Source: Amoebophrya sp. A120
Taxonomy: Eukaryota; Protista; Dinoflagellata
Length of the DNA stretch: 64,000 nt
Assembly: GCA_905178155.1 (NCBI GenBank)
Contig: CAJINV010000003.1
Location: 5,091,700 to 5,155,699 of the forward strand
Direction: 5' to 3'
Part shown: positions 257-52,917 of the stretch, piece by piece
How the letters are laid out: each line of letters begins with the position of its first letter
Numbering within the stretch: the first letter of the stretch is position 1
The notes under the pieces: generated by a model
Told to the model about the DNA's origin: nothing
Databases searched by the model: none
The model's input: the letters and a program-made list of their open reading frames with translations, nothing else
Program-made: the position numbers and the translations under genes

Positions 257-257
257 A

Positions 258-11367: not shown

Positions 11368-14300
11368 ATGTCGCAGACCGGAAAAAGGCAGCTGATTCAG
11401 GTGCACCAGTCGACTATCAAATGCAAAAATATCTTGGTCTGGAAGGATACAAGATTTGTCATGCATGTTTCTCATGACCCATGATGCTTGTGATGCATGA
11501 CCTAGCATCGCAGACATTTAGAGGGCTTCCTGATGCACCTTCCGCATGAGAAATTCCCTGTCCGGGTAGCACAAACTGCACCCCTCTTGCTGGTCATGCA
11601 ATACAAATTTTTTTACCGTCCAAGAACAGCATGACAAGTTGCATTCTTCCAGACCCAGACATTTTTACATTTGATATCGACGGTGAACCGGATCGCAAAG
11701 GACGGGCTGCGGCCCCGGGAGTGGATTTTCAACACCCGCACGCGGCTGTATCCTGAGCAAAAACGTCCACACCCCATAGTCAAGTTGGAAAATCAGCTAG
11801 ACAAATCCGCCAGCTTTGGTTGTTTCGCATGACAGGTTTGTCCTCGTAGTGTAATGCTGTTTAGCTAGTTCAGCAGCATCACAGACCTAACATATCGCGC
11901 TTATTAAAGCATCACAAATGCCAAAGCACAGCGAGAAAATGCTTGGCATGGGGCTCCGCACGAAAAACTTTTTTGGCATGCAGGTTTGCATGACAACTCG
12001 GGGCTGGGGGCGTTTTTACACAGGATAGGCTGCGCACCGGCATCTTCCAGGAGTACGTGCTGGACTACAAAATCCTCGACGTCTGCCTGGTTTTCAAGCA
12101 GACCCTGGAGCCCGGGCGGGTGGCGGAGGCGGTGGCGATTCTGTGCGCGTGGTACCCGATGCTGGCCGGGCGCGTCGAGTTCAGCCACGACGTGGCGGTG
12201 GCCGGCGCGAAGAAGTGGGTCACCCACAACGACAAGGGCTGCAGTCTGGTGTTGGCCACCATGGAGGGCATGGGCTACGCGGACCTGCACGACCACGACC
12301 GCACGATCGACCACCTTAACTTCTGCGACATCGAGACGGACATGCCCAACAAGATCCTTTCGGGCGTGGCCCCCGTGATGACGGTGCAGCTGACGAAGTT
12401 GCAGCGCGGCGGCTGCGTGCTCGGGATCGCCCTGTCCCACTGCGTGTGCGACCACGGCGGCCTGCAGCAGCTGCTCCAGGACTGGAGCAAGCTGTACCAG
12501 GACCCGCTCGCATTGATCATGCCCACGGCGAACGTCCCCGACTGCTACTTCAACGCGCCCTCCGGCGGCGAGATCCAGGCGCACATGCGCACCCTGGGGC
12601 TGATGCGGCTATCAAAAGGAAAAATCCCCCCTCCCCATATCGAAACGAAGTTTCTGATGCTGGATTTCCATACACAAATCAGATTTGTCTTGCAGTAGAG
12701 GACTGCAGGCATATGCCAAGCCTCATTCGAGAGGTTTTGACGTAGGCGCCTAGCATGACAAACGCGTATGCTCTTAGCCCAACAGCATCACAAACCGCCT
12801 GCAAAATGCGGAACGCTTTCTGGACTTGCCTTCTTGCAAGACAGACAGGATTTGAGGTCACAAATGCGCATCACAAATTTTCAGACGGGCACGCTTTCGA
12901 TATGGGGAGGGGGGTTTTTCCTTACGATAGCGACTGGAGCGCAACCTAAGCAACCAGCTGATCAAGGACGCCAAGGTGGGGCTCAGCCTGATCGGCCAGC
13001 GCCTGGCCTCCCACTGCCGCGAGCGCCCGGACCACGTCCGGCTGTCCTTCACGAAGTTTCAAAAAGACCTGTTGATCAACACGGCCGCGAACGACGAGGA
13101 GATCGACCACAGTGTCACCACCAACGAGGCCGTGCTGGTGTACATCTGGAACCTGATGCTGGACACCATCGAGTTTCCCATGGAGCAGCGGGAACACCTC
13201 GCGGTCATGATGTACGTGGACCCCAGGTCACGGGTCTCGGAAGCCGATGTGGGCAGCAGAGTATAGCGTTTGTTTGTACACTTAATTGAGACTGAGCTTG
13301 AGTTTTTGTTTTTGACCTATCACGAAATGAATTATCGTGATTGTCTGCATGCTGTTACTAGGTGAACAGCGCTAGTACGTGCATGCAGAAATCGCATTGC
13401 ACTGGCGTTGTACAGGTTTTCATCAATAATCGCGATGTCAATGGTGCCGGTAAAAAATCCAAAACCATAAATTTTAACAGACCTTCGGGAGCATCATAGC
13501 CGGGATTTCAGTTCCAGTCAACATGAGAGGGTCGCTCGGCACGGTAACGAGCAGCGTTCATTTTAGCAGTCGAAAGGCGCTGAGGACAGAGAAAATCGCC
13601 GCCAGTGTCAAGATGGAGGCTACTATCTTCCCCGAAAACGAGTCGGGTGAGGTCCTGTTCAACCCCCAGACCACAACAGAAAACAGCGGCTGCATCGGAG
13701 AGTGGTAAGAGCACAGCGGGGATCTCTGTTTTTTTTTGCTCGAAGAGTTAGTTTATTACATTGCCTAGTTATTGCGTTGTGCGCACCTCCACGGGTAGTA
13801 CAGGTAGAAGCGAGGGTAATATTAAGGTATCAAATTATGTACTCGTACCCAAGAATATTTGTTCCGCGGTAATATCTAAACAGGTTCTACGGCGCACCAC
13901 TGCTGGATTGGCAGCGAGGGACCAAGATGGCCACGTTTGGCGCGGACTTGGTGCGGTGCGAAGTGGGGTACTCCGGTGAGGTATCAAATGCAAAAATGTC
14001 TGGGTCTGGAAACTTGTAATGCTGCGTTGGGAACAGTGAATGCTCTGTAATGCACCACCAAGCATGAGAAATATCTGCGCTTCTTTGTGTTGCGTTTTTC
14101 GCATTACAAACTGCGTTTTTGCATGACAGGCAAAAGGGTCTCTTCTTAGACACGGATCGCAAACTTTTTGGTCATGCCAGACAAGCATGACAAATATCGC
14201 AATCTTCCAGGCCCAGACATTTTTGCAGTTCATATGAGGGTGTAAAGGTGTCTCCCCGGGTGGACGGCGGGTTGGACGTGTACTTGACACGCATGGACCG

Positions 14301-14463
14301 CCTCTACTTCAACGGGTGGCCAGAGACCTTGGCAAAGTACCCCTACAAAGGGGCGTTCGTCGACGAACTGAAGAAGAGGCACGATTCCTGGTGCCGAAAA
14401 ATCAAGCCGCCGCGACGAAGTGCGTTTAATTTTGCCATGGGGCTGATGGACGCCCAACAGTGA
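11368..14463 (+). CDS. BAHD/HXXXD CoA-dependent acyltransferase-like protein
   Basis: WYPMLAGRV, PVMTVQLTKLQRGGCVLGIALSHCVCDHGG (HXXXD) and an ATFG motif near the C-terminus. Inferred exons 11368-11414, 11682-11748, 12033-12609, 12935-13260, 13481-13704, 13884-13981, 14240-14463. All four TIR-element removals are in frame. Confidence 0.8.
11415..11676. mobile_element. TIR introner, family A (262 bp)
   Basis: TIR tatcaaatgcaaaaat... / ...atttttacatttgata. TSD tcgac. Removal gives VHQSTVNRI. Confidence 0.93.
11749..12027. mobile_element. TIR introner, family B (279 bp)
   Basis: TIR tatcctgagcaaaaacgtcc / gggcgtttttacacaggata. TSD ggctg. Removal gives TRLRTGIFQEYVLDY. Confidence 0.92.
12610..12929. 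mobile_element. TIR introner, family C (320 bp)
   Basis: TIR tatcaaaaggaaaaatcccccctccccatatcgaaa / tttcgatatggggagggggtttttccttacgata. TSD gcggc/gcgac (1 mismatch). Removal gives LMRLERNLSNQ. Confidence 0.88.
13982..14234. mobile_element. TIR introner, family A, second subfamily (253 bp)
   Basis: Left TIR tatcaaatgcaaaaatgtctgggtctggaa; right end slightly decayed (...tttgcagttcata). TSD tgagg. Removal gives GYSGEGVKVSP. Can be read as GT-AG intron 13981-14238. Confidence 0.9.
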
Positions 14464-15291
14464 GCAGGCCACATCGTCGACCGGGGCACGTGTCATCTTG
14501 AAGGGCGAGGTTTAGAAAAAATCATTTCACGAAACAATTCAGAAATCTGTCCCTGTTCGTTGTGGTTTGTTTACAACATCTCTTGTAGTGTTTCTCATTG
14601 CACTTTACAGTTGATCTCAGTTTTTACACACATTTTTATTGTTCCCCCACCGAATACTGCGGTAGATAGGATTTAGAGCAAATTTAGGTCTCGCATAATT
14701 CCACAATTTTCGAATTCCAAGCTATTCCCGTTACTGGATCTATATCCTAGTTCCTACCGACAAAGAGTTGACTCGTGATTCCTTCCGAATTTGGTACACT
14801 ACACGAGAATGTTATTCGAAGAAACTTTTTGCCCTCTGATCTTTGTTGCTTCTTTTCTGTGACCCTGGTTCCTTGCTGCTGTTCTTTCGTGCAAAAAAAT
14901 TCACGATACCAAGAAGCACCAGGTGGTGCGGTATGTGAGAGATTTTTTTGCCTCCAGCTTCAGGGGCAAGCGAGTCGAGAGAGAGAGTGAATGAAAGTCG
15001 ACAAAAAGTCCAAAATGGCAAATGTAGAAGCGCCTTCTGCTAATCTGGCCCTCTCCCTCGGGACGAGCTTGAAATAATACAAGATCGATTGAAAAAATTA
15101 TCAATGCGGCCAATGAGAATTTACTGAAGCCTCGAAAACTAGCGTAGACGCGGCGGCCAGCGAAGTTTTTTTCGGGCTGTAGTTTGGTGGTTGTGCCCGG
15201 GTTGGGCTGTATCGCATACACATTTTTTCAGTGCAAGTTCCGGAATAGAGTAGCCGCAATATATTAATTTGTTATCGACGCTCCTGCCAAC

Positions 15292-33536: not shown

Positions 33537-36500
33537 ATGTCCGCGGTCTCCTCGGGTTTGCGCGAGGGTTACGATGTTGGGCAGTGGGGAAGTTGGCGGT
33601 CCCATTCCGTCTTGCTTCACGAAGCGGTCGCGGAGCTCAGTTGGGGCGAGAAGGCAGCGGCGCTGCTAGAGGTTTTCCGCCGCCACACCAAGACGAAGAA
33701 GGGCTATCTGTCCCGCACGGAATTTCACGATCTGCTGCGTCGGTACCCGTGCTGTGATGCCAATTACTTCGATACGTTTTTCGAGCTCTTCGACCGGAAC
33801 CAGGACGACTTTGTCAACGAGTCAGACTTTCTCGCCGGTATGCTCGCCGTTTCGCCGGGCACCCCGCACAAGGTGGGCCCGGAGTCCCCCGCGGGCCAGC
33901 TGCGCATGCAGTTCATTTTTCTGTACTACGACTACAATCGCAACGGCAAACTCGAGGTCGAGGAGCTACGACGCCTGATCGAGCACCTGTTGCGCATCCG
34001 CGGACAGTATCAACTGCAAAAGTGTCTGGGTCTGGAAGAATGCAACTTGTGATGCTGCATTTGGATGTCTAAAAAATTTGTGTTGCATGAGCAGCAAAGG
34101 GAGTGCAATTTTTGCTACGGGAAGAGGGCATTTGTCATGCGGAATAGGCATCAAGAAGGTCTCAAAAAATCTGTGATGCTAGGGCATGCACAACAGACAT
34201 CATGGCCCATGCAAAACGTGCATGACAAGTCTCAGAAATTTCCAGACCCAGACATTTTTACATTTGATAGACAGGATACGGCCTCTGCGGACCGCGACTC
34301 GCAGGCACTGCACGCACTGGGGACGGGCAACGAGGTGTTTGGGAACCAGTTCGGGTTCCACGCCTTTTTCGACGCCTCCGCACAGAAAATGCTGAATGGG
34401 ACTTCGCAGCTTCTGCGCACGCAGCGCTGCCTCGCCGAAGTGATTCGGCAAGCAGAGAGCTTCCACCAAAGCGGTCAGCACGAAGTGGTGGCAACCAAAG
34501 CGCTCTCCGCACTCCAGCGCGCGCCCGGCTCTCCGATCGGGATGCCGCGCGGCAAGCTGGGGGCGAGCGCCGTTGCTGGCTCGGTCTCCGCGCTGCAGGC
34601 TTCTTCACCCATATTGCCGCAGCCGGCAGCCCCGGAAACAGGCATTTCCGCGTCGGTGTCTGGAGGAGTACTGCGCGACGGGAAGGCGGGCGCCTCTCTT
34701 CTCGGTGCTTCCGCGGCATTAGCGGCTTCTGTGGATCACGTGGATGCTGGCAAGCAGGTTGCATCGACCTCTGATAGCCCACTTCTCGTATCATCGTCAG
34801 CTCGCGGCAAGCAAAGACCCGATGGCTCTGCTTCTGGTGGGGGGGCTTCTCAACTCATCTCGCAGGAGAGCACCCCGTCCGCCAGCTCCCGCACAGCTGC
34901 ACTGGATGTGGCACGCACGCAGCAGAAAACAACGCCAAGTACCACTACCAAGGCAGGACCAACATGTCCGATCGGCGGAGTGTCTACTAGTCCCTTGCTG
35001 CGGCGCCCCAATAGCCCCTTCAGCTTGGGAACAGCGGTGCTCATGCAGCAGCAATTGCAGGACCAGCAGCCGAGCGGCGCGCAAGGCATTGCAAAACAAA
35101 AGTTGCCTGGACAGCATCACGCTGCCACGACTTCGCCGACAAACAAACCGTTCGCATGGCAGGGCCAGCACAGCAATTACTTCGTCGAACCCGCCACGAA
35201 GTCAGCTGTTTGCCCGACCGAGTCGGCTCTTCAGCACGCGCTTGGTACAGGACAGCAGGGTGGCGGCAGCTCTAGCAGCACCTCGCCGCGCGGAGCCAGC
35301 GTGCGCGGCGTGCAATCCGTGGGCGGGGGAGGGCAAGGGCAAACAACTACTTCGGTTCTAGAAGACGACGACGGCCCCGTGTTGCGACAACCAAGTCACC
35401 AGCGACGGCAGCCGGCTTTTCACTGCTCTGTGGATACTTCACACCCACCTGGGAGCTTTGTCCACCGGAGGAGTACCGACCCCAATCAGTTCAACAAGCA
35501 CGCGGTCCGCGGAGCGCCCCCGCCCGCGTACAACTCACTTTCAGCAGATGATCCGGACAACGCGGTCTCGTGGAACACACCTGAGTACTTTTGGAAAGAA
35601 ACTGTGCTGCTTGCTATTTGATATCAGTCCATCAAAGTTGTATAAAAAGGAGAGCCTCGTCCTGCTATTGCTACAAGGCCGCAGCTTATGTCGCGTAGTG
35701 GGAGGGTGAACGAGTGGACAGGGGGGAAAGAAAAACGCCAGAGGATGGGCAAGGGAAAAGGTTTCTGAAGCAGGGCGGGGCCAAGCATCTGCGCCACTTC
35801 TTGTTGAAAGAACCAAGGCGGAGCGTCTTGGCGCCCGTGGTTCCCGTCGTTGTGCGAGCGCGAGGACCCCGCCCGCATTGGAAGCGCGCCCGAGGTTGCA
35901 GGCCTTAGGCCCGACAACGCAAAGGCAAAGCGCGGCAGCGGGCGGGCGCCAGTGAACGGGGGAAGGAAGCAGGAGAACACCCCGCGCCATGCGCGGCGCC
36001 TGCGCGTGACGCCCCGCNNNNNNNNNNNNNNNNNNNNNNNNNNNNNNNNNNNNNNNNNNNNNNNNNNNNNNNNNNNNNNNNNNNNNNNNNNNNNNNNNNN
36101 NNNNNNNNNNNNNNNNNNNNNNNNNNNNNNNNNNNNNNNNNNNNNNNNNNNNNNNNNNNNNNNNNNNNNNNNNNNNNNNNNNNNNNNNNNNNNNNNNNNN
36201 NNNNNNNNNNNNNNNNNNNNNNNNNNNNNNNNNNNNNNNNNNNNNNNNNNNNNNNNNNNNNNNNNNNNNNNNNNNNNNNNNNNNNNNNNNNNNNNNNNNN
36301 NNNNNNNNNNNNNNNNNNNNNNNNNNNNNNNNNNNNNNNNNNNNNNNNNNNNNNNNNNNNNNNNNNNNNNNNNNNNNNNNNNNNNNNNNNNNNNNNNNNN
36401 NNNNNNNNNNNNNNNNNNNNNNNNNNNNNNNNNNNNNNNNNNNNNNNNNNNNNNNNNNNNNNNNNNNNNNNNNNNNNNNNNNNNNNNNNNNNNNNNNNNN

Positions 36501-39500
36501 NNNNNNNNNNNNNNNNNNNNNNNNNNNNNNNNNNNNNNNNNNNNNNNNNNNNNNNNNNNNNNNNNNNNNNNNNNNNNNNNNNNNNNNNNNNNNNNNNNNN
36601 NNNNNNNNNNNNNNNNNNNNNNNNNNNNNNNNNNNNNNNNNNNNNNNNNNNNNNNNNNNNNNNNNNNNNNNNNNNNNNNNNNNNNNNNNNNNNNNNNNNN
36701 NNNNNNNNNNNNNNNNNNNNNNNNNNNNNNNNNNNNNNNNNNNNNNNNNNNNNNNNNNNNNNNNNNNNNNNNNNNNNNNNNNNNNNNNNNNNNNNNNNNN
36801 NNNNNNNNNNNNNNNNNNNNNNNNNNNNNNNNNNNNNNNNNNNNNNNNNNNNNNNNNNNNNNNNNNNNNNNNNNNNNNNNNNNNNNNNNNNNNNNNNNNN
36901 NNNNNNNNNNNNNNNNNNNNNNNNNNNNNNNNNNNNNNNNNNNNNNNNNNNNNNNNNNNNNNNNNNNNNNNNNNNNNNNNNNNNNNNNNNNNTGGCTTGC
37001 AAAATATTCCGACTTGCAAAATATTTCGACTTGCGAAATTTTTTGGCTGGCAAAATATTTCGACTTGCGAAATTTTCTGGCCTGCAAAATATTCCGACTT
37101 GCAAAATATTTCGACTTGCGAAATTTTTTGGCTGGCAAAATGTTTTGCGCTGCGAAATATTTCGAGGTGCGAAATATCTTGAGTTGTGAAATATTTTGCG
37201 TTGCAGAGTATTTCGCTTTGCGAAATATTTTAAGTGGCAAAACATTTCGCGTTGCAACATAGCCGGGAGCTGCTGGGCGATGGGAGCCGGGCGATGAAGG
37301 TCGGCAATCGAGCGATGGGAGTTGGGAACCCGTGCTTTCTGCTCTCCCCGTGCCGCCCGCTTTCAAAGCTGCAAAAACGGGGGAAGCGGTTTCTTCGGGG
37401 GGTTGATGTTGCGAAAAATTTTCTGGTCAGAATAGTTTCCGAGGGTGGAAAAAGATTCTGAGTTGCAAGATATTCCGACATCCAAAATATTTTGCCTCGC
37501 AAAGTATTAGTTTCGAAATATTTTGAGTTGCAAAATATTTTGCGTTGCAGAGTATTTTGATTCGCAAATTATTGCGAGTTGCAAAATATTTTGCGTCGCA
37601 AAATAGTCGGGCGATGGGCATTGGGCGATTGGAGTTGGGCGATGAAAGTTGGGAGCTGGGCGATGGGGATTGGGAAGTGGGCGATGAAAGTTGGGAGCTA
37701 GGCGATGGGAGTGGTGGCTAGTTTGGCGATGCGAATTGGGCGGTGGGCGGTGGGCGATTTCGCAAATCGCGAAACTTTTGGGACGTTTGAAAACTGTAAA
37801 AAAATTTTCGGCGTGGACGATTTTCCTCCCCGTCGCAAAATTTTAACTTCCGCAGCTCAGCAATAGGAGTTATATGCTTTGTTGCAGCTCTATTTTAGCT
37901 TGCCAGAATACTTATACTCAAACTCATCTAGAAGTTTCGTTTCCCTTTGTTCATCTACTGTAGGGCCATCGCGCTCCGGATCGTGCGGAAGGTGATGGAA
38001 CTGAGCAACGACCCAACGTTCGAGTGGCAAACGCGCCCCTCGCTGGTGACCGCGGAGGAGCTGATGGAGCTGTGCGACTCCGTGTTCGAGAAAATCTCGG
38101 AGGAGAACTCGCTTGTGCGTGTCGAGCTGCCCTGCCGCGTGTACGGGGACATCCACGGGTATGGAACTGTCAGGATCGAAATTGACAAAGTCGAAAAATT
38201 TGTGATGCATAAAATGCATGACGCGAAATACGTGTGTTGCAGAGCGGGCAAGTGAGGCCGATTGTGGGCCTGTTTGGGTTTATTGCTCGAGCTGCTAAAG
38301 CAGCATGAGAGAATCAGTCCTCTTTGCCTAAACAGCATTACAAACTGGATTTAGGCACCGCCAGAATTTGTGATGCGCCATTTAGAAACTGGGTTCGAAC
38401 TGGAATCCATTTTATGCATGACAAATCATTTCGCTTTTGTCAATTTCGATTCTGACACTTCCATAACGGGCAGCTGCCGGACTTGCTGCACTTCTTCAAC
38501 GCCTTCTCGTGGCCCGACAAGCGGCGGGGCGACATCTTTGCGATGAACTACATTTTCCTCGGGGACTTCGTGGACCGGGGCAATTACTCCGCCGACGTGG
38601 TCACTCTGCTGTTTGCGCTGAAAGTGCTCTACCCCAAGAAGATCTACCTCGTGCGCGGCAATCACGAGGACCGGTTGATGAACCAGAACTACGGATTTCT
38701 GCAGGATTGTCACTTCCTCTTCCCCGGCCCTGCTGTGGACACAGCAGGAGGTGGTGGGGAACAACTGCATGGAGAAGAGAAGGAAAACAATAACGCAACC
38801 GACGCCAGCAACGCGGAAGAAAACACCGTCGGGTAGAAACAAATAGTTGGGGTTGAAGATGCCTTGCCTTGTATACAGGCGGAAGTGCAGCTGCAAGGTT
38901 TTTTTGTTCGGACTCTCGCAAGAAGTAAAGAAATCGAAAAATATACGAATCAGGTTTCAGGTGTGGGAGCGCGTCAACGATGCGTTTGAATTTCTACCCA
39001 TCGCCGCACTGGTGGATGACCAGGTACTGTGCATCCACGGTGGAATCGGGGATTCGATCCACAGTTTGGACGACCTGCGCGACATCCCGAAGCCGATCAA
39101 GATCTCTCCCGAAATCACCGAGGAAACCACCCGGCAGGACAAAATCGTGTTGGACGCGCTTTGGTCGGACCCGACAGATAATGACTCCGTGCTGGGCGTC
39201 CACCTGTCCCCCCGGGGCCAAAACACCTGCCGCTTCGGCCCCGACCGGGTGCACGACTTCAATAAGCGGAACAACCTCAAGATGATCATTCGGGCTCACG
39301 AGTGCGTGCAGTATGGGTAAATAAAAGTGCTGGAAAATTTTGATGCTGCACATGAATGCAACTCTGATGTCCTACCAAGCGTTGTAATACCTAGATTGAT
39401 ACCAGCGCCGCGCCTTCATCTCTTTACGTAATAGATGTGTTGTTCGAAGTTTTCTTTAATATTTCCACTTCTTGGAGGACGTCGATGAAATCCATTCGCG

Positions 39501-39747
39501 TTTTTGTTCACATCATTACAGCTACGAGTACTTCGCAAACGGCCAGTTGTTGACCGTTTTTTCCGCCACGAACTACTGTAACCAGTACAATAACGACGGC
39601 AGCATGGTGGTGCTCATCAAGAATCCCGACGGTTCAGTCGCCGAGCACGCACAGGTAATTCGCTCGGGTGCCGCAGACACGGCCCACGGTTGGGCCCCGG
39701 AGCAGTACCGGGACCCATCGCCAATGCGAGGGAATTCTGCATGTTGA
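33537..39747 (+). CDS. EF-hand-containing PPP Ser/Thr phosphatase (EFPP-like; BSU/PPKL-type catalytic domain)
   Basis: EF-hands DRNQDDFVNESD and DYNRNGKLEVEE. Catalytic motifs GDIHGQ, GDFVDRG, RGNHE, HGG, LWSDP, RAHE and FSATNYC. Exons 33537-34007, 34275-35584, 37964-38159, 38471-38832, 38954-39316, 39522-39747. Confidence 0.88.
34008..34269. mobile_element. TIR introner, family A (262 bp), opposite orientation to the 11415 copy
   Basis: TSD gacag. Interior aligns with the reverse complement of 11415-11676. Removal gives RGQDTASAD. Confidence 0.92.
36018..36991. other. Assembly gap (N run) inside phosphatase intron 35585-37963
   Basis: Run of n bases. Confidence 0.99.
36992..37760. repeat. 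Two interleaved degenerate tandem arrays (gcaaaatatttcgactt-type and tgggcgatg-type)
   Basis: Many ~18-bp units with a near-palindromic aaatattt core at 36992-37260 and ~37400-37605. gggcgatg/ttgggag units at ~37265-37330 and ~37608-37760. Confidence 0.85.
38160..38465. mobile_element. TIR introner, family F (306 bp), splitting the GDIHGQ motif
   Basis: TIR tatggaactgtcaggatcgaaattgacaaa / tttgtcaatttcgattctgacacttccata. TSD acggg. Removal gives GDIHGQLPDLL. Confidence 0.95.
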
Positions 39748-41123: not shown

Positions 41124-44100
41124 ATGGTGACACAGAAACAAGAGCAAGCACCGTCAGTCGAGAAAAAGCCCGCGATTCCGCTGGGCCAGCTTCCGTGGGG
41201 AAGTTCGGAAGAAGAAGAAGGGCTGCAAAGTCATTCCGCCCGGGGCATGACGCTGCGGCAACATGAAGAGCAGGTCGAGGCAGAAGACAAAGCCGCACGG
41301 AAGCTGCAGGCTGTTCACCGGGGGAACAAAGACAGGCAGCGCGTGGAGCTGATGAAAGCCGGCGACGTGAGCCCGGCAGAGAGCGCGAATTCCGTGCACA
41401 GCGGGGTCTGGCATTTGTCGCACCAGCACGAGGAGCAGCGACTGGGGGCCGCTGCCACCAAGCTCCAGGCCGTGCACCGGGGCAATCAAGACCGGCAAAG
41501 GGTGGAGCTGATGAAGGCCGGGGATGTGAGCCCGGCGGAAAGTGTCGGATCCGGCCACAGCGGCGTTTGGCACATTTCGCACCGCCACGACGAGCAGCAG
41601 CGCGTCGAGGCGACTGCCGCAGTAAAGATCCAGGCCATCCACCGCGGTAACCAGGATCGCGCAGAGCTGGGCAAAAAGCACGATGCCGCAACGCGTATCC
41701 AGGCCGTACGCAAGGGGAACGTGGCACGCAACCAGGTCGATTTCATGAAGGCCGGAGCCTTCAGCGGAGCGGAGAGCGTGACTTCCCAGCACTCGGGGAT
41801 CTTCCACCTCGACCACCGGCACGAGGAGCAGACGCGCGCAGAGACCGCTGCAGCCCTGCAGATCCAAGCCCTGCATAGAGGAAACCGGGACCGAGAGGAC
41901 TTGCGACAGCAGCAAACCGCGGCGGCGCGCATTCAAGCGGTGCACCGCGGGAATGCAGTGCGCGCGGATATCCAGGAGCAGCATGAAGCCGCCAGCCGCA
42001 TACAGTCCGGGTTCTTTCGTAGCCGGAATATTAAAGATGCCACTGAAGCATCAGAAGCGAAGGGAACCGCTGGTCTGCGGAGAGATGAGCCGAGCGAGTC
42101 CGCCGATGAGATGGAGGTTCCGGACGAGGTGAAAATGGAAAGGTCGGACGCACCAACAACTGCGGAGCACGAGGCTGCGTCGAAAATCCAAGCCATCCAG
42201 CGCGGAAACGCGGCGCGGGCGGAGCTACAAGAGAAACAGGATGCCGCAGTACGAATACAAGCAGCGTACAAGGGCAATGTTGCCCGAGCGGAGCTCCTGG
42301 AACAGCACGAGGCTGCATCGAAGGTCCAGGCTGTGTACCGAGGTAACGCAGTGCGAGCTGAGATTCAGGAACAGCATGAAGCTGCAGCGAAGGTCCAGGC
42401 TGTGTACCGAGGTAACGCTGCGCGAACAGGCTTGCAGCAGCAGAAAGACTTTAGTGCCACTACCTCTAGGGTAAAGGCGGAGGCTCAAGTAGAGGGGACA
42501 CTTGCAGCGGATCCGGCGAACGAGGAGAAGCAGCAGGGCATGGTAGTGTCAAATATGCCCACCGGAAGCAGTGCGGAGCATGAGGCAGCCGTGAAAATTC
42601 AAGCAATACAGCGTGGAAACGCAGCGCGTGCAGACCTACAGGAGCAGCAAGATGCCGCAGTCAGGATACAGGCAGCGTACAAAGGTAACGTTGCGCGCGC
42701 TGAGATTCAGGAACAGCATGAAGCCGCAGCGAAGGTTCAGGCTGTCTACCGAGGTAATGCTACGCGCGATGAGATTCAGGAACAGCATGAAGCTGCAGCG
42801 AAGGTTCAGGCTGTGTACAAGGGTAATGTTGCCAGGGCCGAGCTTCAGGAGCAACACGAGGCAGCGGCAAAGATCCAGGTGGTCTACAAGGGGACCGCGG
42901 TGCGAGCGGATGTGCAGGAACAGCACGAGGCAGCCGAGAGGATTCAGGCGGTCTATAAGGGCAACGCAGTTCGTGCGGATTTACAGGAACAGCATGAAGC
43001 AGCCGCAAAAGTGCAAGCCGCGTATCGAGGGAATGCTGTCCGTGCGGAGCTGCAGCAAAAGCAGGCAGTTGTGGCTCAAGAGGCTCAACAAGAAGATTTA
43101 AGCGCACCGCAGTCGAGCATGCCGCTCGAAGAGAGTTCTGCTCTCCGAGAGCAGCACGATGCCGCTGCGAAAATTCAGGCTGTGTATAAGGGAAACGCCG
43201 TGCGTGCCGACCTGGGGGAACAGCACGAAGCTGCGTCGAAATTGCAGGCCGCGTATCGCGGAAATGTCGCCCGAGCCGAATTGGAAGAGCAACACGAAGC
43301 AGCCGCGAAGATTCAGGCCGTTTATAAGGGCAGCGCAGTGCGTGCGGATCTGCAGGAACAGCATGACGCAGCAGAAAAGATTCAGGCGGTGTACAAGGGA
43401 AATGTAGTGCGGGCGGACCTTCAAGAGCAGCACGAAGCCGCAGCGAAAGTGCAGGCGGTCTATAAGGGAAATCTTGCCCGAGCCGAGCTGCAGGAGCAAC
43501 ATGAGGCGGCCGCAAAGGTGCAAGCTGTTTTTAAGGGTAATGCCGCTCGAGCCGAGCTCTTGGAGCAGCATGAGGCCGCCGCGAAGGTGCAAGCGGTCTA
43601 TAAGGGTAATGTTGCTCGAGCCGAGCTTCAGCAGCAACATGACGCAGCAGAAAAGATTCAGGCTGTGTATAAGGGAAACGCAGCACGAGCGGAGCTTCAA
43701 GCGCAAGACGACGCTGCCGCGAAAATTCAAGCTGTGTACAAGGGGAGCGTCGCCCGTGCTGATCTGCAAGAACAACACGCTGCCGCCTCGATGATTCAAG
43801 CAGTATATAAGGGCAACGCTTTGCGTACCAATCTCGATGTTCGAATAAAAGATGGCGTGGTCACAGAGCGCCCCGTAAGTGAACAGAGGACACAGGCAGG
43901 CACTGATCCCGAGCAGGTGAGCCATCAAAATAGAGCCCTCAGCGAGCAGGACACTACATCACCAGCCTCAGCTTACTCAATAAGAGATCAGAGAATACGG
44001 AGAGGGGAGGGAGAAGCCCTCAGCGCAGAGGGGATCGATGACATGTCCGTGCGCGCGTCGGCGGCGGAAGCGGAAGAAGCCACTTCTTCAAAGGGCAGCC

Positions 44101-47027
44101 CGGGGCGGCGATTGGCCGTGGATGCGCCAGCGCCGCCCTCGGTGGTGGCCGTTGCGCGGGAGCACGAGCCGCTGCGTCAGGGGTCGCATCAGGCCGTCGC
44201 GGTCTCTTTTCCAAATTCCCCGGTGCTCCCGGACCGCGCAGTGGAGCCCGTGCCAGCGACGACTGGGATACTAAGCAAGACTCCACCTTCTCGAGCCGCC
44301 GATGCTGGGCGAGGGGATGGATCCAAAGAAGTTGCGGCAGCTAGGATACAGGCAGCGTATCGGGGAAAGCGATCGCGGGGTGGACGGCACCACCACGGTC
44401 GGAGGGCCCAGCAGCGCAGCCCGGAGGTTCACATCGACCTCTCGTCTCCTCCATTGGGGTCCAGAACTCCTGCAGGAGAGGCAGATGCCATGCTGTCCCC
44501 CAAGGCCTCGCCGGGGCATATGGCGTCCCCGCGGGCTGTGCACATCGCAGAACCGAATTCCCTGGATCCGAGTGCGACCGACGCGGAGGAGGAAGGCACC
44601 AAGGAGCAGCGCATGGCGGAGCAGCGCATTCTCCGGGATCGCATGTGCACGGCGGGGTTTGAGACCCCCGCGTTTTCGCGACCCAGTTTCCGCAGAGCCA
44701 GTCCCAGCTTCTCGGCCCGTCGCGCGCCAATCGGATTAGCAGACCGGAAAAGTAGAGCCGAGCTCGGTAAAACCGCTCTGGGAATACGACTGACGGCGGG
44801 ACCGGTATACTTCGTTTTTTTTTTCCCCTTATGATCGTTTCAATTTTTCACTCGTTCTTTTGGAAGAATAACAATCTAGAAGATAGATGCTTTCCGGGCG
44901 GAATCGTTTTGGTTGTCATCTGCGTCTGCCTTCGAAAACTCGACCTTCGTATAATTTCGATGTTGCCTTTATTCGAGTATGTGCTCCCCGCCCTGTGATC
45001 CTGTGCTGCTCCTCATGTCATGAGATTCTGACGCGAAAAGCACCATGCTTCGTTCGCTAAGGGCCAATTTGTAAAAATCGCCACACGTCGAACAACTTGA
45101 TTTCTTAGGGGGAGCCGCAGTTCCTGACCGCCCAGGAGTACGCCGACCGCGACGGCAACCGGCCCTTCGTCATCTACAAAAACACCTTGTTGCGGTACTT
45201 TTACTCGGCGGCGCGGTTCACGAGCACGATCCTGCAGCCGCGGACCTGGAGGATGATGTGGCGGTTCTTGCACTCGCTAGCCGAGCTGGACCAGGAGGAG
45301 TTCGCGCGCCTCGCGAACCGTTCGGCGTCCACCGCGACGCCGGCCCGCCAGCTGCTCTCGGTGTACGACATAAACGCGGGCGGCGCGAGCGGGGACGACG
45401 ACAAACTCGACTTCTACGCCCCGCCGGAGTACGTGGAGCAGGACGCGGAGCAGCAGCTGGCCGGGCTGATCCACCAGCTGACGGACATGCCCTGGCGGTA
45501 CTGCCTGGCCGTGGACATCGGGGGGTCCCGCACCAAGTTCAAGTTCGTGGACACGAACACGGACGAGGTGTGCCACCTGGCCAAGATGAACTCTCAGGAC
45601 CTGTGGGAGACCTACGACCCCGCCATCAGTCTGCGCGAATACCTCAGCAAGCGCATTTCCAGCGAGCAGCTGCGCGGGGTGGACCGCATCATCTTCAGCG
45701 TGCCGGGGACGATCGACATTTCGCAGGCCGTGCGCGCGGAGGAGATGACGGTGGTAAAGAACATGCCCGCGTTCTCCAGCACCTTCCGCGGCTTCGATTT
45801 CAAGGCACGCTTCAAACCCTACTTCCCGCAGGCCAAGGTGTCCGCCGTCTGCGACAATCTAGCCGCCGCCATCGGCTGTGCCGCAAAGTATCTGTTTTGT
45901 TTGCTATAATGAGGATTTTTTTATTTTGAAGCGGCGCGCATAAGTCTTTCATCGGGGGCCCGAGTAGTTCATCGATAATCAATGTATTGTGCATTTTGAT
46001 CATGTCGGTGCTGTGTCTCGACGAAGATGATGTCGAGCCATGTAGTGCTGTGTTTTGATCTTTCTCTTCGTTTGCTCCTCTTTTCAGGTACCCCAACGTG
46101 ACGCAAGGTCTGGTGCTTGTGCTAGGTACGGCTCCAGCCTGCGCCACTTTCAACCGCAAAGGCAACGAAGGGCTGGAAACCGGGATGTGGCAGAGTTGGG
46201 TGTGGTTCACGAAAATGTCCCTGAAAGACCCCTACGGGTACGCCGGCGGTGTGAAGATCCAGGACAACGGGAAGAAGATCGTGACCAATCCTCCGGACTT
46301 TGTCAAGATGCCCCACAAGCAGGCCAGGATACGGTTCGCGCTCGACAACCGAACCTGGCTGCGTCTGCAGGGCAAAGAGCCCACGCTCCCCGCGCACCAC
46401 CAAGGCAGTTTGTCCGTGGAGGAAGCGACGGTTATTTGGGTCGAGCGGTTGAAGGGTGCCCTCCGTGCGTTGGCGCAGAAATTTCACAGTTTCTACGGGC
46501 CGCCCGACGCCATTTTTGTGCTGGGTGGGAACAGTTTGCAGGTGCACGGCAAGTTTGACGAGATTCGGTACGACAACCCCGAGGTGCTGGAAAACGGGGT
46601 CGGGCGCCGGAGCAACCGGGGCGAGCACAAGACGTACGTGCCCGTCTTCACGTGCGCAACCGACGCGGAGCAGCAAGACACCACCATGGTGGGGCTGTTG
46701 CAAAGTAGTCGCTTCAAAGTGAAGCAGGTGTACTCCTCGGGATCGGACCCGCTCGACCGGGGATGGACCCGCGGGGGGGAAATCTACCACTGGGTGCTGC
46801 GGTCCTCGCCGCCGAAGACGTCCGGGCGAACCGGCTCGCAGGGCAGTGCCGCCGACGCCCGAGCCCGGGACGAGATTCTGGCGGGCGGTGGTTCTGAGCA
46901 CGACAACACGCTCAGCGCCGGCGTGCGGCACAGCCTCGCCCTCGCAGAGGCGGCGAGCGACGACCACGACCGGCTGCGCACCTCCATGATGAGACCAGAG
47001 GTCGAAACTGAGGAGGACACACTGTGA
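41124..47027 (+). CDS. Multi-IQ-motif protein joined to a C-terminal ROK/ASKHA-like kinase domain
   Basis: ~29 [IVL]QAxx[RK]G motifs, mostly at a 23-aa period. In-frame GT-AG introns 44805-45108 and 45888-46087 lead to AVDIGGSRTKF, SVPGTID, CDNLAAAIG and LVLGTAP. Confidence 0.72.
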
Positions 47028-47719
47028 CGCGCGATCACCCTGTTGCGATCTCCTGCCGGCTATCGTGCTGTCTGGCCACGGTGACATACACAACATATTG
47101 TTCTTGAACGACACGTAAAAATGTTGTCCATGACACGGAAAACTATAAAAATCTTGGTAGTTTCTGCCAGTTGCCTTCGACGACTGCGCGTCGCAAAGGC
47201 AAAAGTGCTGTGCGTCGCTGCGCTTCGCTCGTAAGCCAGTAGTCTCGCACTTTGATGTTCACTTTTCGACAACCTGGGGCTTTTTGGTTGGGTTGCTGCA
47301 ACTTTCAAATCGGCAATGAAAACAGTTCGGACTTTGCGATCGGTATGTTGGTTCGTCGAAAATCGTATGTGCTCCTTCGTTTGCCCGTTCACCTGGTGCC
47401 ACATTCGCCGGAATCGCCTTCGCAGTACTATCGGTGCTGGGAAATTAATGACATTTGTCGGGTCTGTCAAATCTGCCTACTTGTACGTTTCGGATTTTTC
47501 GGAAAGGTCGTTCTGGAAGTTCTCTTTCGGGGCAAATATTGAAAATTATTCCTTGAAAAGTTAAAGTACGTGTCGTCGGCTCGTGTCCGTAGAGCAATTT
47601 ATGTAAGGGATTCACCGTTTAATCATTCATCACTAGGGTCGTGACAAGTATCCTCCAGTTGCTTGAGAAGTTTGCCCGAGCGCTGCCGCGACTCGCAGGT
47701 GCGCAGCCGCGGTGCCAAG

Positions 47720-50700
47720 ATGAGTGCAGATGACAATCTCTGGGGCGCATGGCTGGATGTCCGCGATCGGGACATTGTGAAGGAGAATGCAGACGCGGCG
47801 TTTGGGCGGCCCCGGAGTGCGCCAAGCACGAAGACAGCGGCTACGCTGGCGCGCCCAAGCTCCGCCGCGGCATGGTTGCAGCGGAGGCAATCCGAGTTGC
47901 AGCGGCGCCGGGACGTCGCAGAATACACTGCCTCCCCGGGGGGCTCTCCGCTCCTCGGAGCGGAATACAATTACACGTCCGGTGGCAGCAGCAGCAGTAC
48001 GAATCCCAATCCGCAGCTGGCTGGTTCTTCTGCAACAACCGATGGACAACAAGTCGCAGCGCCGCGGGTGCAAAGTGCGACAGCACGTCCACCACATGGG
48101 CATTCAAGCCACCGAACCACAGGAGCTAGTACTGCCAACGGAGCAGACGAGGAAAATGTCCTGACTGCGCAACCACGCCCGAAGACGGCCATTGGGATTC
48201 CGTCTCGGTTTAAGGTGAACACACACCTGATAGACTTTTCGCGCAAGGGCTTGTCTCCCTCCTTCCGAACGGGCACCGGAGTAGGCGCAGGAGGAGCAAC
48301 AGCGAACAAAATCGGCAACGGCACCGGCCCGAGCCGCGGCGACGAAGACAACACGCCGCTGGGTGGGGCACGAGTTCTTGCGTCAAGAACCAGTGACCTT
48401 GCGGCAGCAGACGCGACCACCGCCAAACCGGCGATGTCGCCCATTGTTGAGGAATCGTCCATCCTCACTGCAGGGGAGGAAAATTTTTTGGAGAAGAAGC
48501 GCATTATGTGCGAGAAAAGTCCGAAAAAGAGTATTTTCTCGATGCTGAACATAGAGCCGGCCGCTGCGCAGCCTGAAGTCGTAGAAAAACCGAGCTCGTC
48601 GCCGGGAAATAAACAATCCATGCCGCGGACCCCAAGCCGGCTCCCCTCGTCGCCCTCGTCGTCACCTCTCGCCATTGCGCGCCAAGGCAGCACCGCGACC
48701 CTCGAGGTGGCCGCGGGTGAGAGCGGCGACGCGGACTCGGCGCAGCGGACCGCCGGGCCTCCCCGCAGCGCCAGCGCCTCGCCCTCGAAGCAAAAAAGCG
48801 GGGTCGAGTCGCCGCAGCAGATCATGGAGCGCTTGCAGAAGCGGTGGCGCGCGTACCTCGAGGGCATCGCCGCCGAAGAGGAGGCTCGGCAGCGCAAGGA
48901 GAACTGGAAGCGGCGCATGGCCGAGGTGGAGAGCAATCGGATGTCCGCACACGACCGTCAGAAGTTCTTCAACGAGATTCGGTACAAGGCGCAACAGGAC
49001 TCGCACTTCCACGGGCAGTATCAAATGTAAAAATGTCTGGGTCTGGAAGGTTGGAACTTGTGATGTGCATTTCACAACACAGAAAAATCTCTCATGCATA
49101 GGCGGCAAAAGGTGCCCATTTCCTGTCACCAAAATGGGGGATTTGTGATGCGGATTAAGCAATGCGGAAGCTTCTCGAAATCTGTGATGCTAGGGCTTCC
49201 ATGACAGGCATTCTGTGTCATGCAAAAACAGCATGACAAAAATCTGCATTCTTCCAGACCCAGACATTTTTACATTTGATAGGCAGTTCATTCTCGCGCA
49301 GGCCACGGAAATGCTGCACCAAAATATCAAATGTAAAGATGTCTGGGTCTGGAAGAATTCAGGTTTGTCATGCTTGTCCGGCATGGCTCTTAAATCTGTC
49401 ATGCACGTTACCCAAGCGCTCCGTTTTTCTGTGATGCAGCGGCGCAGTTTGTCATGCAGAATAGGCAACACCTAGGAACTCAGAAACTTGTCATGCTGAG
49501 CCAGCATTTGTAGCCTCATCATGAGACGCCACCCAGCATCACAAGTTTCCAGACCCAGACATTTTTGCATTTGATACAAAACGCGGAGCAACCACTGGAC
49601 GCCGCGCTGCGCTACCGGCTTCAAACCCTGCTCGAAAAGGCGGCTCAGGTCACCCACGGCGACAACGTGTCCGCACTGCTGCTGCTGGCTGCTCTTGAAG
49701 AAGAAGAGAAGAACTATACCAAGGCACGGCAACTGCACGCCACGATCGTCCAGAAAGCAAAGGAGGGAAACGAAATTGCGCTCACTTGCCTCGTGGAGGT
49801 TGCGGAGTTTCGGGAACGCCAAATACAACGCGACGCCGACAACCGCCGGAAACGCGCACGAAAAAAAAGCATGATGAAGGTTCTACTTCGTGTGTTGATA
49901 TATTCTGCTCCTGGAAACAAGTACAAGTAGAACAGCAAAGTACCAAATAAAAGCTTTGACCTTACTGATAGAATAGATGCTAGGACCGGATTGATTTTCC
50001 TATCCTGTCAATACTCTCGTTGCGGGTCGTACTCTTCGTTTGAAACTTACTTCTAGCCGCACTTACAGCTGCATAGCATAGAGTCAAAATCATGTTCAGG
50101 TTGTACCGAAGAAAAAATCGACAAATCGAGGGACAGCAAACGTCATCGCGGAGCTAGCGATGAAACGCGAGGAGGTTGAGCAGCCCATTCTGAAGTACAC
50201 GGTGCAGCAGGGCTTCCTCGAGCCCATGCGCAAGGCGCTGCTGCGACTGACCGCACAACACCCGTCCGACAAGCGGCATCTGGACAGCCTGAAGCGCAAG
50301 ATTGCGCAGGAAAAGGCAAAGGAAAACCGGGAGCATGCGCAATCTCTGGCCACGCTGAAGAAAATTTCGGGCGGTTTCTTCATGCAGGGCGCGGCAAAGA
50401 CCGACAACAGCGAAGTTTCACACATGGAGAAAATGCGGCTCAAGCTGCTACAGTCCACAAAGCTCGCGGTGGATGTGAATACCATGATGCAAAGCACCAG
50501 TTCCGTATCTAGGAAAAAACAACCATCCCCATCCATTTTATGCATGACAAACAGAGGACTGCGTGCATGCTTTGCATGACAAATTGGATGGGGATGGTTG
50601 TTTTTTTGTGGATATTCCGACGAGGAGAAGCGGCGAAGAGGCGCGCGAAAAAAGCCACTGGTAAGCGAGGACACCGTGGTGCAGTGGATTCCGCGCGAAT

Positions 50701-52917
50701 ACTATCAGAATGAGAAGGTGGCGTATCGAAGACAGATCGACCGCGGCTACGATGAGAAGTACAGTTTTTTACTGCAAATTTCTCACACGCATCGTTGCTA
50801 CAACGCCGGTTCGGTTGTGCTTGCAGCTCCGCCTCCCTCATGGGGTTTTGTAAGGTTTCTATAAGTAAAATTTTCTTGAACTTGATTTCATCTTCGCACG
50901 GCATTGATTTGTTCTCTCCACCGCGACAGGTTCGACCAGGAGGTAACACTGAATCATGCTGGCGTCATCACTTTTCACACGCGAATGGCCCGGGCAAACT
51001 TTGGACAGCAACGTATTACAGTGAAAAGTGCCCCCCACCCCCAAAGTTGCAAAAATTTGTGCTGCGAAGTTTCCAAATGAAAACTTTTTGTCATGCATGA
51101 AAGGAGGACGAATCTTTCTGATGCAGAGTCTAGTCGTGTTTCGCATCGCTTGCATGACAAGCACCGCTCTTCCTGGGATCTTTTGCAATACAAATTTTTG
51201 CTATTCACGATCGGAAATCTGTGATGCTGATACATGCAAGAGGGCGAATGTTTCATTTGGAAAGGTTTGCAATACAAATGCTTTCAAGTTCGGGGGTGGG
51301 GGCATTTTTCATTGTAATACAACGACGCCCACAAAAGAAAAAATCGCGAGGCCAGTCGCTGCTGAAGAAGGCGTCCACGCTATCCTATGTAAAAACGTAC
51401 CCACCCCATAGTTGTCATGCAATTCTGCATGCCAAAAAAGTAAAAGTTTCTCATGCGGAGCCCTATGAGAAGCATTTTCTATTCGTGTTTTGGAATTTGT
51501 GATGCTAGAATCAGTATGGTAGGCTAGCTCTGTAATGCTTCTGAGCTAGCGAAACAGGATTACACTACGAGGACAAACTTGTCATGCCAAACGACCAAAG
51601 CTGTGTGATTTGTCAAGCAGACTTGACTCTGGTGTGGGTACGTTTTTACTCAGGATACACGCAAATGCTCGCAACGGGGTACCTACACTTCGTATTTTTT
51701 TAGCTGCAGTGTTGTTTTCTCATTCTTTCGCACCATTTTTTCGCGGACCTGCTTTAATTTTTTAGTTGAGTCAGTCCATTTTCGTTTCACTCACATTCCG
51801 TGCCGACGCACACTGCGTACATGGAACAAATCGAAACAGTGCTTTGGTAGAAGATACTGCGGCAAACGTGCGCGACGGGCTAGATTCTCCGAAGGAGCCA
51901 CCGGAGGCCGGAAGGTTGCACGTGGAGCGTCCGCAGTCGACACTGATGAAACGACGACCGGACAGCGCGCCCTACCTGCGCACCTTGCACACATGGGACT
52001 CGAGTAAAGGTTTCGACGTTTTCTCGATGATGCACGGCAAATCCGAAGACTACAATCACGCCGTCCGAAGCGCCGCGACGCTCGTCAGTCGGCGGCACAA
52101 GCGCGCCGCCAAGCAATCCGCGAGTGTTTCGCCCGACGGCCGCAACAGTGAAACGTCGTCCCCCACCTTATCTCGCTCGCCCTCGGTGTCCCCCAAGCGT
52201 AGTGAAAAAGAAGAGCCAGGAGCTGCAGCACCAAAGGTCGTGGGATCGAGTTCCACTTCGAAGGAAAGCAACGCCATGACGCCGACTGTCCGCCGGGTTT
52301 ATTCTGTAAAGGAGAACTCATTCCGCTCGCTCTCTGCAAGTCCGTCAAAGCAACAAAAGGACAAGAAAGGTACAGACAATGTGATTGGTCGGGTGCGTGC
52401 TGTTTTGAGCTTCTGCTTCTTCCATTTTCTGAGAAAAATGAATGCATAGTTTTTATCGTCCGAAAGCTTGTTGCGCACTTATTACCTCGCATCGTGCTCA
52501 GAACTTCTTCTAAATGAGGAGCACGCGGCGACGGCTTATGTTGTCATCACCCGCGTGCCAGATGCGCAAGAGGATAGACATTTAGAAAAATATCGATCCT
52601 TGTAAATTTGCAACTACTCCACAGGCGAGCACCACCACGCCACGGGCCGCAGTTTGCTTGAGAGTAGCTTGAAGCTTGCGAAGCTACCGCCGAAGTTGGA
52701 TCCGGACGAAATAGATACCTACCCCGACCTGGATGTTGCGAAGCTGTTCCCCATAGAAACGAAGGTCCAAAACCACGATCCACGACGAGTTCGCCGTTCC
52801 TACGGCCTCGTTCCCACGGAAACGCCAGACCCTCCTGAGGACGACTTTGCGTTGCGAGCGCGACCACCAGAGCGGGCATCACCAGAGCACTGCTTCCGCA
52901 CTGCTGCCCAAAGCTGA
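47720..52917 (+). CDS. Large hypothetical protein interrupted by five TIR introners and four canonical introns
   Basis: Inferred exons 47720-49018, 49287-49324, 49582-49879, 50100-50505, 50620-50758, 50930-51013, 51325-51380, 51663-51678, 51840-52387 and ~52625-52917 join without stops. No domain recognised. Confidence 0.65.
49019..49281. mobile_element. TIR introner, family A (263 bp)
   Basis: TIR tatcaaatgtaaaaatgtctgggtctggaag / cttccagacccagacatttttacatttgata. TSD ggcag. Removal gives HGQFILAQ. Confidence 0.93.
49325..49576. mobile_element. TIR introner, family A, second subfamily (252 bp), opposite orientation to the 13982 copy
   Basis: TSD caaaa. Removal gives LHQNAEQPL. Interior aligns with the reverse complement of 13982-14234. 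Confidence 0.92.
50506..50614. mobile_element. Minimal TIR introner, family D (109 bp)
   Basis: TIR tatctaggaaaaaacaaccatccccatcca / tggatggggatggttgtttttttgtggata. TSD ttccg. Removal gives STSSDEEKR. Confidence 0.9.
51014..51319. mobile_element. TIR introner, family E (306 bp)
   Basis: TIR tattacagtgaaaagtgccccccacccc / ggggtgggggcatttttcattgtaata. TSD caacg. Removal gives FGQQRRPQKK. Confidence 0.9.
51381..51657. mobile_element. TIR introner, family B (277 bp), opposite orientation to the 11749 copy
   Basis: TIR tatcctatgtaaaaacgtaccca / tgggtacgtttttactcaggata. TSD cacgc. Interior aligns with the reverse complement of 11749-12027. Confidence 0.92.

What the first reader, a model, noticed from the sequence alone, without database searches (positions are those of the whole stretch)
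11415..51657. The same introner occurs in both orientations in sense-strand genes
Seen: three reverse-complement pairs, 11415/34008 (both 262 bp), 13982/49325 (253/252 bp) and 11749/51381 (279/277 bp), all in + strand genes and all frame-restoring. Established: spliceosomal introns carry strand-specific signals (branch point, acceptor), and RNA-mediated intron spread preserves orientation. Inference: spread is by DNA transposition, and the removal signal is strand-symmetric (TIR stem plus two-way internal motifs).
Basis: partly seen in the sequence, partly recalled or inferred. Interest (0 to 1): 0.85.

Follow-up and report, generated by a model that had tools for sequence, protein, structure and literature searches.

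The report
Transposon introns that work either way
Short DNA transposons sit inside the protein-coding genes of a parasitic dinoflagellate about equally often in both orientations and leave the messenger RNA without normal GT-AG signals (seen in RNA for one orientation, inferred for the other), likely because the cell reads only a few letters at their mirror-image ends; the elements are already published, but this even split and end rule were not found in print.

Summary
All three pairs are one family in opposite orientations, interiors included (z 24, 9, 26). Each element has TAT..ATA ends, ~30-bp TIRs and a 5-bp target duplication, and sits in a + strand gene. They match the published introners of Amoebophrya sp. 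A120 (label of 100% protein hits), already classed as TIR DNA transposons. One RNA contig lacks five elements plus one duplication each, to the base. Forward copies are backed by a gapless ortholog and only indirect RNA. In 146 metagenome loci the orientation is even (78:74, strict calls), and the target supplies no splice site (GY..AG possible in 8 of 182, chance level), unlike Polarella and Aureococcus, where both orientations are known. Interiors are polar, and a decayed, motif-free copy is still removed, so 'two-way internal motifs' are not the signal. A post-hoc hint: the terminal TAT is conserved asymmetrically along the transcript (p 0.0003 to 0.06), which suggests a 5' N-U-A donor and a fixed A near the 3' end. 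Known kind, new property; mechanism open but testable.

The parts
11415..11676 (+). Introner, family F0, forward orientation; duplication TCGAC at 11410-11414 and 11677-11681
   Evidence: P0001 and ortholog P0002 gapless across it; no RNA cover of the junction
34008..34269 (-). Introner, family F0, reversed; duplication GACAG; in EF-hand/phosphatase gene
49019..49281 (-). Introner, family F0, reversed; duplication GGCAG
   Evidence: absent from RNA contig X1 record 2; DNA contig runs into it
4521..5009 (+). Introner, family F0, forward, with an internal insert of about 210 nt; duplication CGGCG
   Evidence: host gene not confirmed by homology or RNA
13982..14234 (+). Introner, family F1, forward; duplication TGAGG
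   Evidence: ortholog gapless; two RNA contigs stop matching at its edges and go on in other letters (indirect)
49325..49576 (-). Introner, family F1, reversed; duplication CAAAA (no GY start or AG end in any register)
   Evidence: absent from X1 record 2 by exact length
11749..12027 (+). Introner, family F4, forward; duplication GGCTG
   Evidence: ortholog gapless; no RNA cover
51381..51657 (-). Introner, family F4, reversed; duplication CACGC
   Evidence: RNA contig joins 51380 to 51663 (table 5c)
12610..12929 (+). Introner, family F5; duplication differs at position 4 (synonymous)
38160..38465 (+). Introner, family F6, inside the GDIHGQ phosphatase motif
50506..50614 (.). Short (109 nt) near-palindromic introner
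   Evidence: absent from X1 record 2
51014..51319 (+). Introner, family F9
   Evidence: absent from X1 record 2
56314..56561 (.). Old, decayed introner: TAT..ATA kept, TIR 12/30, duplication copies much diverged, no internal motif
   Evidence: P0004 skips 253 nt; RNA contig length fits; orthologs read WIREEGG; keeping all five upstream letters gives a stop
56593..56940 (-). Decayed introner, F4-like; duplication differs at position 5, RNA carries the downstream letter
   Evidence: piece begins at 56941 with no other letter; orthologs end DDIT.LV.YI as in the excised reading
11368..14463 (+). Host gene, Transferase family (PF02458), four introners and two GT-AG introns
33537..39747 (+). Host gene, EF-hand plus calcineurin-like phosphatase
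47635..53274 (+). Host transcript (1077-codon open frame, family not looked up), five introners and four GT-AG introns
54085..56970 (+). Host gene, PP2C phosphatase, two decayed introners

Best explanation
These are short non-coding TIR elements with a 5-bp target duplication that lie in coding sequence in both orientations about equally, likely spread as non-autonomous DNA transposons, and are removed from the mRNA together with one duplication copy (seen for reversed copies, inferred for forward ones), likely by a machinery that reads only the few terminal letters that the TIR makes the same either way round. Shown: anatomy, even orientation, no base preference in the target, exact removal in an RNA contig. 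Inferred: a transposase acting in trans (not found). Proposed mechanism, about 50% within this reading: a relaxed spliceosome cuts one letter before the element (intron start N-U-A-Y, the host's usual G-U-A-Y donor without the G), uses the A three letters from the element's 3' end as branch nucleophile, held close by the TIR pairing, and places the 3' cut by distance, four letters into the second duplication copy, with no AG.
For: Opposite-strand interiors. 241 of 308 candidates in the loci have an exact 5-bp duplication. Orientation to host gene: 78:74 of 152 strict calls; motif polarity 91:90, 40 neutral, of 221; F0 45:53. Strict coding calls: 152 of 262 when element+5 is removed, 58-63 when the frame is shifted, 16 for shuffles; flanks scored separately are in phase in 99 of 139 clear cases. 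Duplication copies differ less at 0-fold (29/815) than 4-fold sites (18/221), p 0.006. RNA contig of 3601 nt equals the five-element-free model exactly; DNA contigs run into the elements. GY..AG possible in 8 of 182, null 6.5%, antisense 8. Departures from TAT, positions 1-3: 5' end 0/1/11, 3' end 6/4/2 by host sense (p 0.0003), 3/2/4 vs 3/3/9 by element end (p 0.85). 8 of the 11 tolerated 5' variants are TAC; canonical donors are GTAY in 9 of 12 (one read after a 2-nt shift). Two decayed copies put position 5 of the upstream duplication inside the intron.
Against: X1 is only guessed to be RNA (it does lack GT-AG introns) and X1-X4 are one sample. The terminal asymmetry is post hoc, rests on 24 variants, weakens to p 0.0018 with one low-margin CAT counted and to p 0.059 in the strictest 178. 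No G excess at the proposed +1 position (66 of 212), and no branch-site consensus around the fixed A across families. The exact register below 5 is not fixed by my data (flat likelihood). No G-U over A-C bias in the stem. Family F3 is biased (15:3 strict; 18:8, p 0.08). Strand calls in the loci are statistical (loose threshold passes 77 of 262 shuffles). No transposase seen.
Confidence: 0.7

Rival explanations
1. Same spread, but removal is by a non-spliceosomal cut-and-join activity guided by the closing hairpin and a short terminal code, as proposed for euglenid nonconventional introns; the excised piece would be a full circle or a linear RNA, not a lariat.
For: No dependence on GT or AG at all: 41 of 182 copies offer neither in any register; no G excess at +1; both orientations fold into long stems joining the ends (z -9.4 and -5.9); U1 snRNA not detected in these strains (Farhat); Euglena uses a short paired code at fixed spacing (Nomura abstract; Mikina).
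Against: A copy with 12 of 30 TIR matches is still removed; no G-U bias; a U-G wobble at the third pair is rare while the C-A mismatch is common, which points to sequence, not pairing; the tolerated 5' form mirrors the host's GTAY donor.
Confidence: 0.3
2. The elements are cut from DNA (as ciliate IESs are) or are polymorphic, so the RNA comes from element-free templates.
For: Precise loss of element plus one duplication is also what exact DNA excision gives; the tool's count of the joined form in other runs was not given.
Against: In DNA run X5 single contigs at about 45x run from exon into the elements (44000-49043, 49552-50540, 51294-51408, 51632-58000); no joined form among the X5 joints shown (list cut). 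Decayed copies with diverged duplications are still removed.
Confidence: 0.04
3. Only one orientation is spliced; the other kills the gene, or the joined contigs are reverse-transcriptase jumps across hairpins between direct repeats.
For: Short direct repeats around a hairpin are the known setting for template switching (own knowledge); RNA support here is for reversed copies, and the gene with forward copies has thin cover.
Against: The transferase with three forward copies is intact and 63% identical and gapless to an ortholog at all four sites; the joined contig is the main form at depth 104 and lacks five elements at once; both orientations are equally common in coding frames; kept elements carry stops (3 of 221 tolerable).
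Confidence: 0.06
4. Spread by an RNA route (reverse splicing), orientation mixed later.
For: Farhat et al. found no transposase in A120 and argued against general transposase-driven spread; none seen here.
Against: Near-identical copies lie in opposite orientations (up to 97.8%); uniform 5-bp duplications and TIRs; Gozashti 2025 reports an A120 TIR family with an integrase-like ORF.
Confidence: 0.03

Closest known systems
Amoebophrya A120 introner elements (Farhat 2021, PMC7789003; Gozashti 2025, PMC12130899)
   Same: TAT + 7 variable + AAA inverted repeats, 3-5 nt direct repeats, ~250 nt, non-canonical ends, several per gene; classed as TIR DNA elements. These are those elements.
   Different: In the text I saw neither paper gives element orientation to the host gene, the lack of target bias, or a rule for the ends; Farhat leaves the border positions unknown.
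Polarella glacialis and Aureococcus introners (Roy preprint 10.1101/2020.10.14.339549, passages; Huff 2016 not held)
   Same: TIR/TSD elements that make introns in either orientation.
   Different: They recruit G[TCA] or AG from the duplication, need a particular target and are biased to one orientation; here the target is random, the ratio even and no canonical site is needed.
Euglenid nonconventional introns (Nomura 2025 abstract, PMC12501133; Mikina 2024 section 6)
   Same: Ends brought together by inverted repeats, TSD-like repeats, short code at fixed spacing from the junction, probable MITE origin.
   Different: Code is CAG/CTG with a purine at the exon start; excised as circles; unrelated lineage. 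Not tested here for circles.
Fritillaria borealis non-GT/AG introns (Mikina 2024; PMC13326754 passages)
   Same: MITE-derived introns handled by an adapted splicing machinery.
   Different: Specific ends (AG-AC, AG-AT) and an exonic TAC; U1 kept.
IS3EU-type DNA transposons (recalled, not from a call)
   Same: Termini recalled as TAY..RTA; here TAT with TAC as the commonest variant.
   Different: Duplication recalled as 6 bp, here 5; no transposase found.

Membership tests
Amoebophrya A120-type introner elements | Inverted repeat starting TAT, seven variable letters, then a run of A | tested here: met
   All six named copies and most family ends; F6-F8 ends lack the A run at that place
Amoebophrya A120-type introner elements | 3-5 nt direct repeat over the exon borders | tested here: met
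   5 bp in all six; 241 of 308 candidates in the loci
Amoebophrya A120-type introner elements | Removed from mRNA with non-canonical ends | tested here: met
   Five elements absent from one RNA contig; forward copies by homology
Amoebophrya A120-type introner elements | Host is this organism | tested here: met
   Three exons 100% identical to proteins that their sources label Amoebophrya sp. A120
MITE (non-autonomous TIR DNA transposon) | TIRs, fixed-length duplication, short, non-coding, many copies in families | tested here: met
MITE (non-autonomous TIR DNA transposon) | Cognate autonomous element or transposase | tested here: inconclusive
   No long ORF in seven long candidates; only 0.42 Mb of loci seen, no genome held
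Splice-site co-opting introners (Aureococcus/Polarella type) | One or both canonical splice sites taken from the duplication, hence target bias | tested here: not met
   GY..AG in 8 of 182, null 6.5%; no positional base bias
U2 spliceosomal intron | GY..AG ends | tested here: not met
U2 spliceosomal intron | Lariat through a branch adenosine | not testable with these tools
   Only a conserved A near the 3' end; no lariat reads
Euglenid nonconventional intron | CAG/CTG paired code | tested here: not met
   Ends are TAT..ATA
Euglenid nonconventional intron | Excised as full-length circle | not testable with these tools
   No raw reads of this strain
IS3EU (features recalled) | 6-bp duplication | tested here: not met
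   5 bp

The most novel reading that the evidence does not exclude
A universal intron cassette: a DNA transposon that becomes a precisely removed intron at any site and in either orientation, because the host's splicing machinery needs only N-U-A at the 5' end and one A three letters from the element's 3' end, with the 3' cut set by a fixed distance and no AG. This would be a splicing code with no exon-derived or terminal dinucleotide requirement, and would explain the missing U1.
Probability: 0.3. Interest if true: 0.85.

Novelty: new variant of a known kind. Interest (0 to 1): 0.5.

Why it matters
How Amoebophrya removes tens of thousands of non-canonical introns has been open since 2021. 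An even orientation ratio and a random target rule out signals in the interior and in the exon, and confine the code to the element's ends. The asymmetric conservation of the three terminal letters gives a specific, testable guess for the cut position and branch nucleotide. If right, it shows how a host can make any transposon insertion harmless, and offers a sequence-independent intron. The elements, their TIR-transposon nature and two-orientation introners as such are published, which caps the surprise.

Tried and rejected
No genome held, so no genome-wide count in this strain. Raw RNA runs X8 and X9 gave 129 and 2 reads, all partial on element ends, so no splicing efficiency or strand; no listed holder is on record as RNA. 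Junctions 11415 and 11749 had no cover. The viral collection was not searched. An apparent G excess at duplication position 5 in the window (8 of 12) vanished in the loci (66 of 212). A hint that both duplication copies are under coding constraint (25 of 46 mismatches synonymous) did not hold: 0-fold/4-fold ratio 0.44, not below the 0.5 expected for a fixed register (p 0.38). Register by mutation likelihood was flat. G-U versus A-C test of the stem was null. The 2.4-kb intron at 35586-37964 is GT-AG, not a long element. Long TIR pairs were separate or nested copies without ORFs. One search translated in the wrong frame; one search replaces it. No ortholog for the 34008 gene among 7988 scored candidates (weak). 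Two look-ups in earlier findings were empty. Rows dropped: 67 of 288 and 67 of 359 elements without a confident strand; 110 of 262 in the strict set; 68 of 207 ambiguous in the phase test.
Full report
Observation. The three pairs are at the stated places and lengths. On the opposite strand they align at 210/263, 189/260 and 225/285 columns, with scores 257, 144 and 275 against 39, 1 and -37 on the same strand. After cutting 50 nt from each end the interiors still match only reversed (z 24.4, 9.1, 26.2 against 1.6, 0.9, 1.5). The six interiors are not palindromes (self z at most 1.6), so orientation is a real property. Each copy begins TAT, ends ATA, has a TIR of about 30 bp and a 5-bp duplication. 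The window holds 14 such elements.

Host. Exons of three genes are 100% identical to proteins that their sources label Amoebophrya sp. A120: a transferase, an EF-hand phosphatase and a PP2C. Farhat 2021 (PMC7789003; abstract, sections 10-12 and 16, passages and supplement search seen) describes A120 introners with TAT + 7 + AAA repeats and 3-5 nt direct repeats, unknown border positions and no detected U1 snRNA. These are those elements.

Are they removed? Reversed copies: RNA contig X1 record 2 is 3601 nt, and the unlisted middle is 1041 nt. A model that drops 49019, 49325, 50506, 51014 and 51381, each with one duplication, plus the GT-AG introns gives 1041 and 3601 and a 1077-codon frame. 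The joint across 51381 is shown letter by letter (table 5c). DNA contigs of X5 run from exon into the elements. X1 is guessed to be RNA; it lacks GT-AG introns. Forward copies: the transferase holds 11415, 11749 and 13982; an ortholog at 63% identity aligns without a gap at all four element sites, and kept elements carry stops in all three frames. RNA cover is thin: one contig leaves the window at 13981 and goes on for 11 other letters, another starts at 14235 with one other letter; 11415 and 11749 have no cover. For 34008 only the annotated P0003 agrees. So removal is seen for one orientation and inferred for the other.

A larger sample. Whether it is the same strain is not shown. I called host strand with a codon model trained on the window; calls agree within loci in 230 of 243 pairs. 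The loose threshold passes 77 of 262 shuffles, the strict one 16; strict calls pass 152 of 262 with element+5 removed and 58-63 with shifted frames. Orientation is even: 78:74 strict (F0 22:31, F1 6:10, F4 8:6), F0 45:53, F1 15:24, F4 12:9 loose, motif polarity 91:90. F3 departs (15:3 strict). Flanks scored separately are in phase in 99 of 139 clear cases. Duplication copies differ less at 0-fold than 4-fold sites (29/815 vs 18/221, p 0.006), as expected in live genes; split by orientation the trend is the same way in both (p 0.08 and 0.01).

Where is the signal? Not in the target: no positional bias; a GY..AG reading is possible in 8 of 182 copies, against 6.5% for flank 5-mers and 8 antisense; 41 of 182 offer neither a GY start nor an AG end. 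Not in the interior: it is polar, and the GCATBACA motif (49 hits in 3974 nt of elements, 9 in 59 kb outside) runs mostly one way, as transposase-binding subterminal repeats do (inference). The old copy at 56314 has no motif and 12 of 30 TIR matches, yet 253 nt are skipped and orthologs read straight through. Both orientations fold into a stem joining the ends (z -9.4, -5.9), but G-U and A-C mismatches are equal (245:244), so selection on the RNA stem is not shown.

The ends. Among 302 copies, departures from TAT at positions 1, 2, 3 are 0, 1, 11 at the transcript's 5' end and 6, 4, 2 at its 3' end; exact p 0.0003, against 0.85 when sorted by element end. Counting one low-margin CAT gives 0.0018; the strictest 178 give 0/1/6 vs 4/3/2, p 0.059. 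Positions 4-30 are even (1262 vs 1184). This is post hoc. It suggests that the RNA needs U(A) at the start and the third-last A at the end. The tolerated start TAC mirrors host donors, GTAY in 9 of 12 RNA-supported introns. Two decayed copies show that position 5 of the upstream duplication is intronic: RNA carries the downstream letter at 56593, and the upstream letter would make a stop at 56314. That fits an intron starting N-U-A-Y but does not fix the register below 5, and there is no G excess at N (66 of 212).

Mechanism. Shown: TIR elements, 5-bp duplication, even orientation, random target, exact removal. Inferred: mobilisation in trans by an unseen transposase. Best guess for removal: relaxed spliceosome, donor N-U-A-Y, branch at the third-last A, 3' cut by distance. 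Main rival: a euglenid-like hairpin-guided cut and join. DNA excision and template switching are unlikely.

What is in print. Gozashti 2025 (PMC12130899; passages, and 22 of 58 A120 rows of one supplement) classes most of the A120 families seen, including ones of about 250-300 bp, as TIR DNA, and reports a TIR family with an integrase-like ORF. The Roy preprint (passages) reports either-orientation introners in Polarella, as in Aureococcus, recruiting splice sites from the duplication and biased to one orientation. Gozashti 2022 (passages) allowed for opposite orientation in its method. Huff 2016 was not held. Mikina 2024 (passages, section 6), Nomura 2025 (abstract), PMC12621601 and PMC13326754 (passages) cover euglenids, diplonemids and tunicates. 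Eight searches and word look-ups in Farhat's text and supplement found no statement on orientation or an end rule for Amoebophrya introners; subscription papers were not searched.

Verdict. Real, and more than chance. Known elements, known mode of spread, known phenomenon in other algae. New as far as I could search: an even ratio with no splice-site recruitment, and a candidate terminal code. Interest 0.5.

Noticed in passing
window 4717-4962: The 4521 element carries an insert of about 210 nt between two copies of a 19-nt direct repeat, with TTTAGGG-like repeats; looks like a repair or retroposed insert inside an introner.
   Followed up: partly
window 56593-56940: The annotated protein P0004 reads into this element and loses the PP2C end; the RNA contig and three orthologs support removal, so the public gene model is likely wrong.
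   Followed up: yes
window 36993-37605: Array of a ~17-nt near-palindromic unit next to a 975-N gap, inside a 2.4-kb GT-AG intron.
   Followed up: partly
window 7929-8310, 1-255, 7796-8050: A ~380-nt palindromic repeat of another kind (not TAT..ATA); 1-255 is 100% identical to 7796-8050, possibly an assembly overlap.
   Followed up: no
window 257-529, 5767-5987, 10380-10883: Dispersed repeats at 83-89% identity, unrelated to the introners.
   Followed up: no
window 41088-44834: 1248-codon open frame with a long degenerate tandem repeat, coiled-coil-like.
   Followed up: no
L052:3329-3608: An F4 copy flanked by an 8-nt instead of a 5-nt duplication.
   Followed up: no
L067:4551-5698, L059:3001-3972, L037:3315-3945: Introners split by 300-850 nt inserts, with both ends kept.
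   Followed up: partly
L001-L146, family F3: One family leans to one orientation (15:3 strict, 18:8 loose), unlike the others.
   Followed up: partly
L001-L146 and window: Elements favour coding sequence: 152 of 262 pass the strict coding test against 71 of 268 random positions; flank GC 55% vs 50%.
   Followed up: partly
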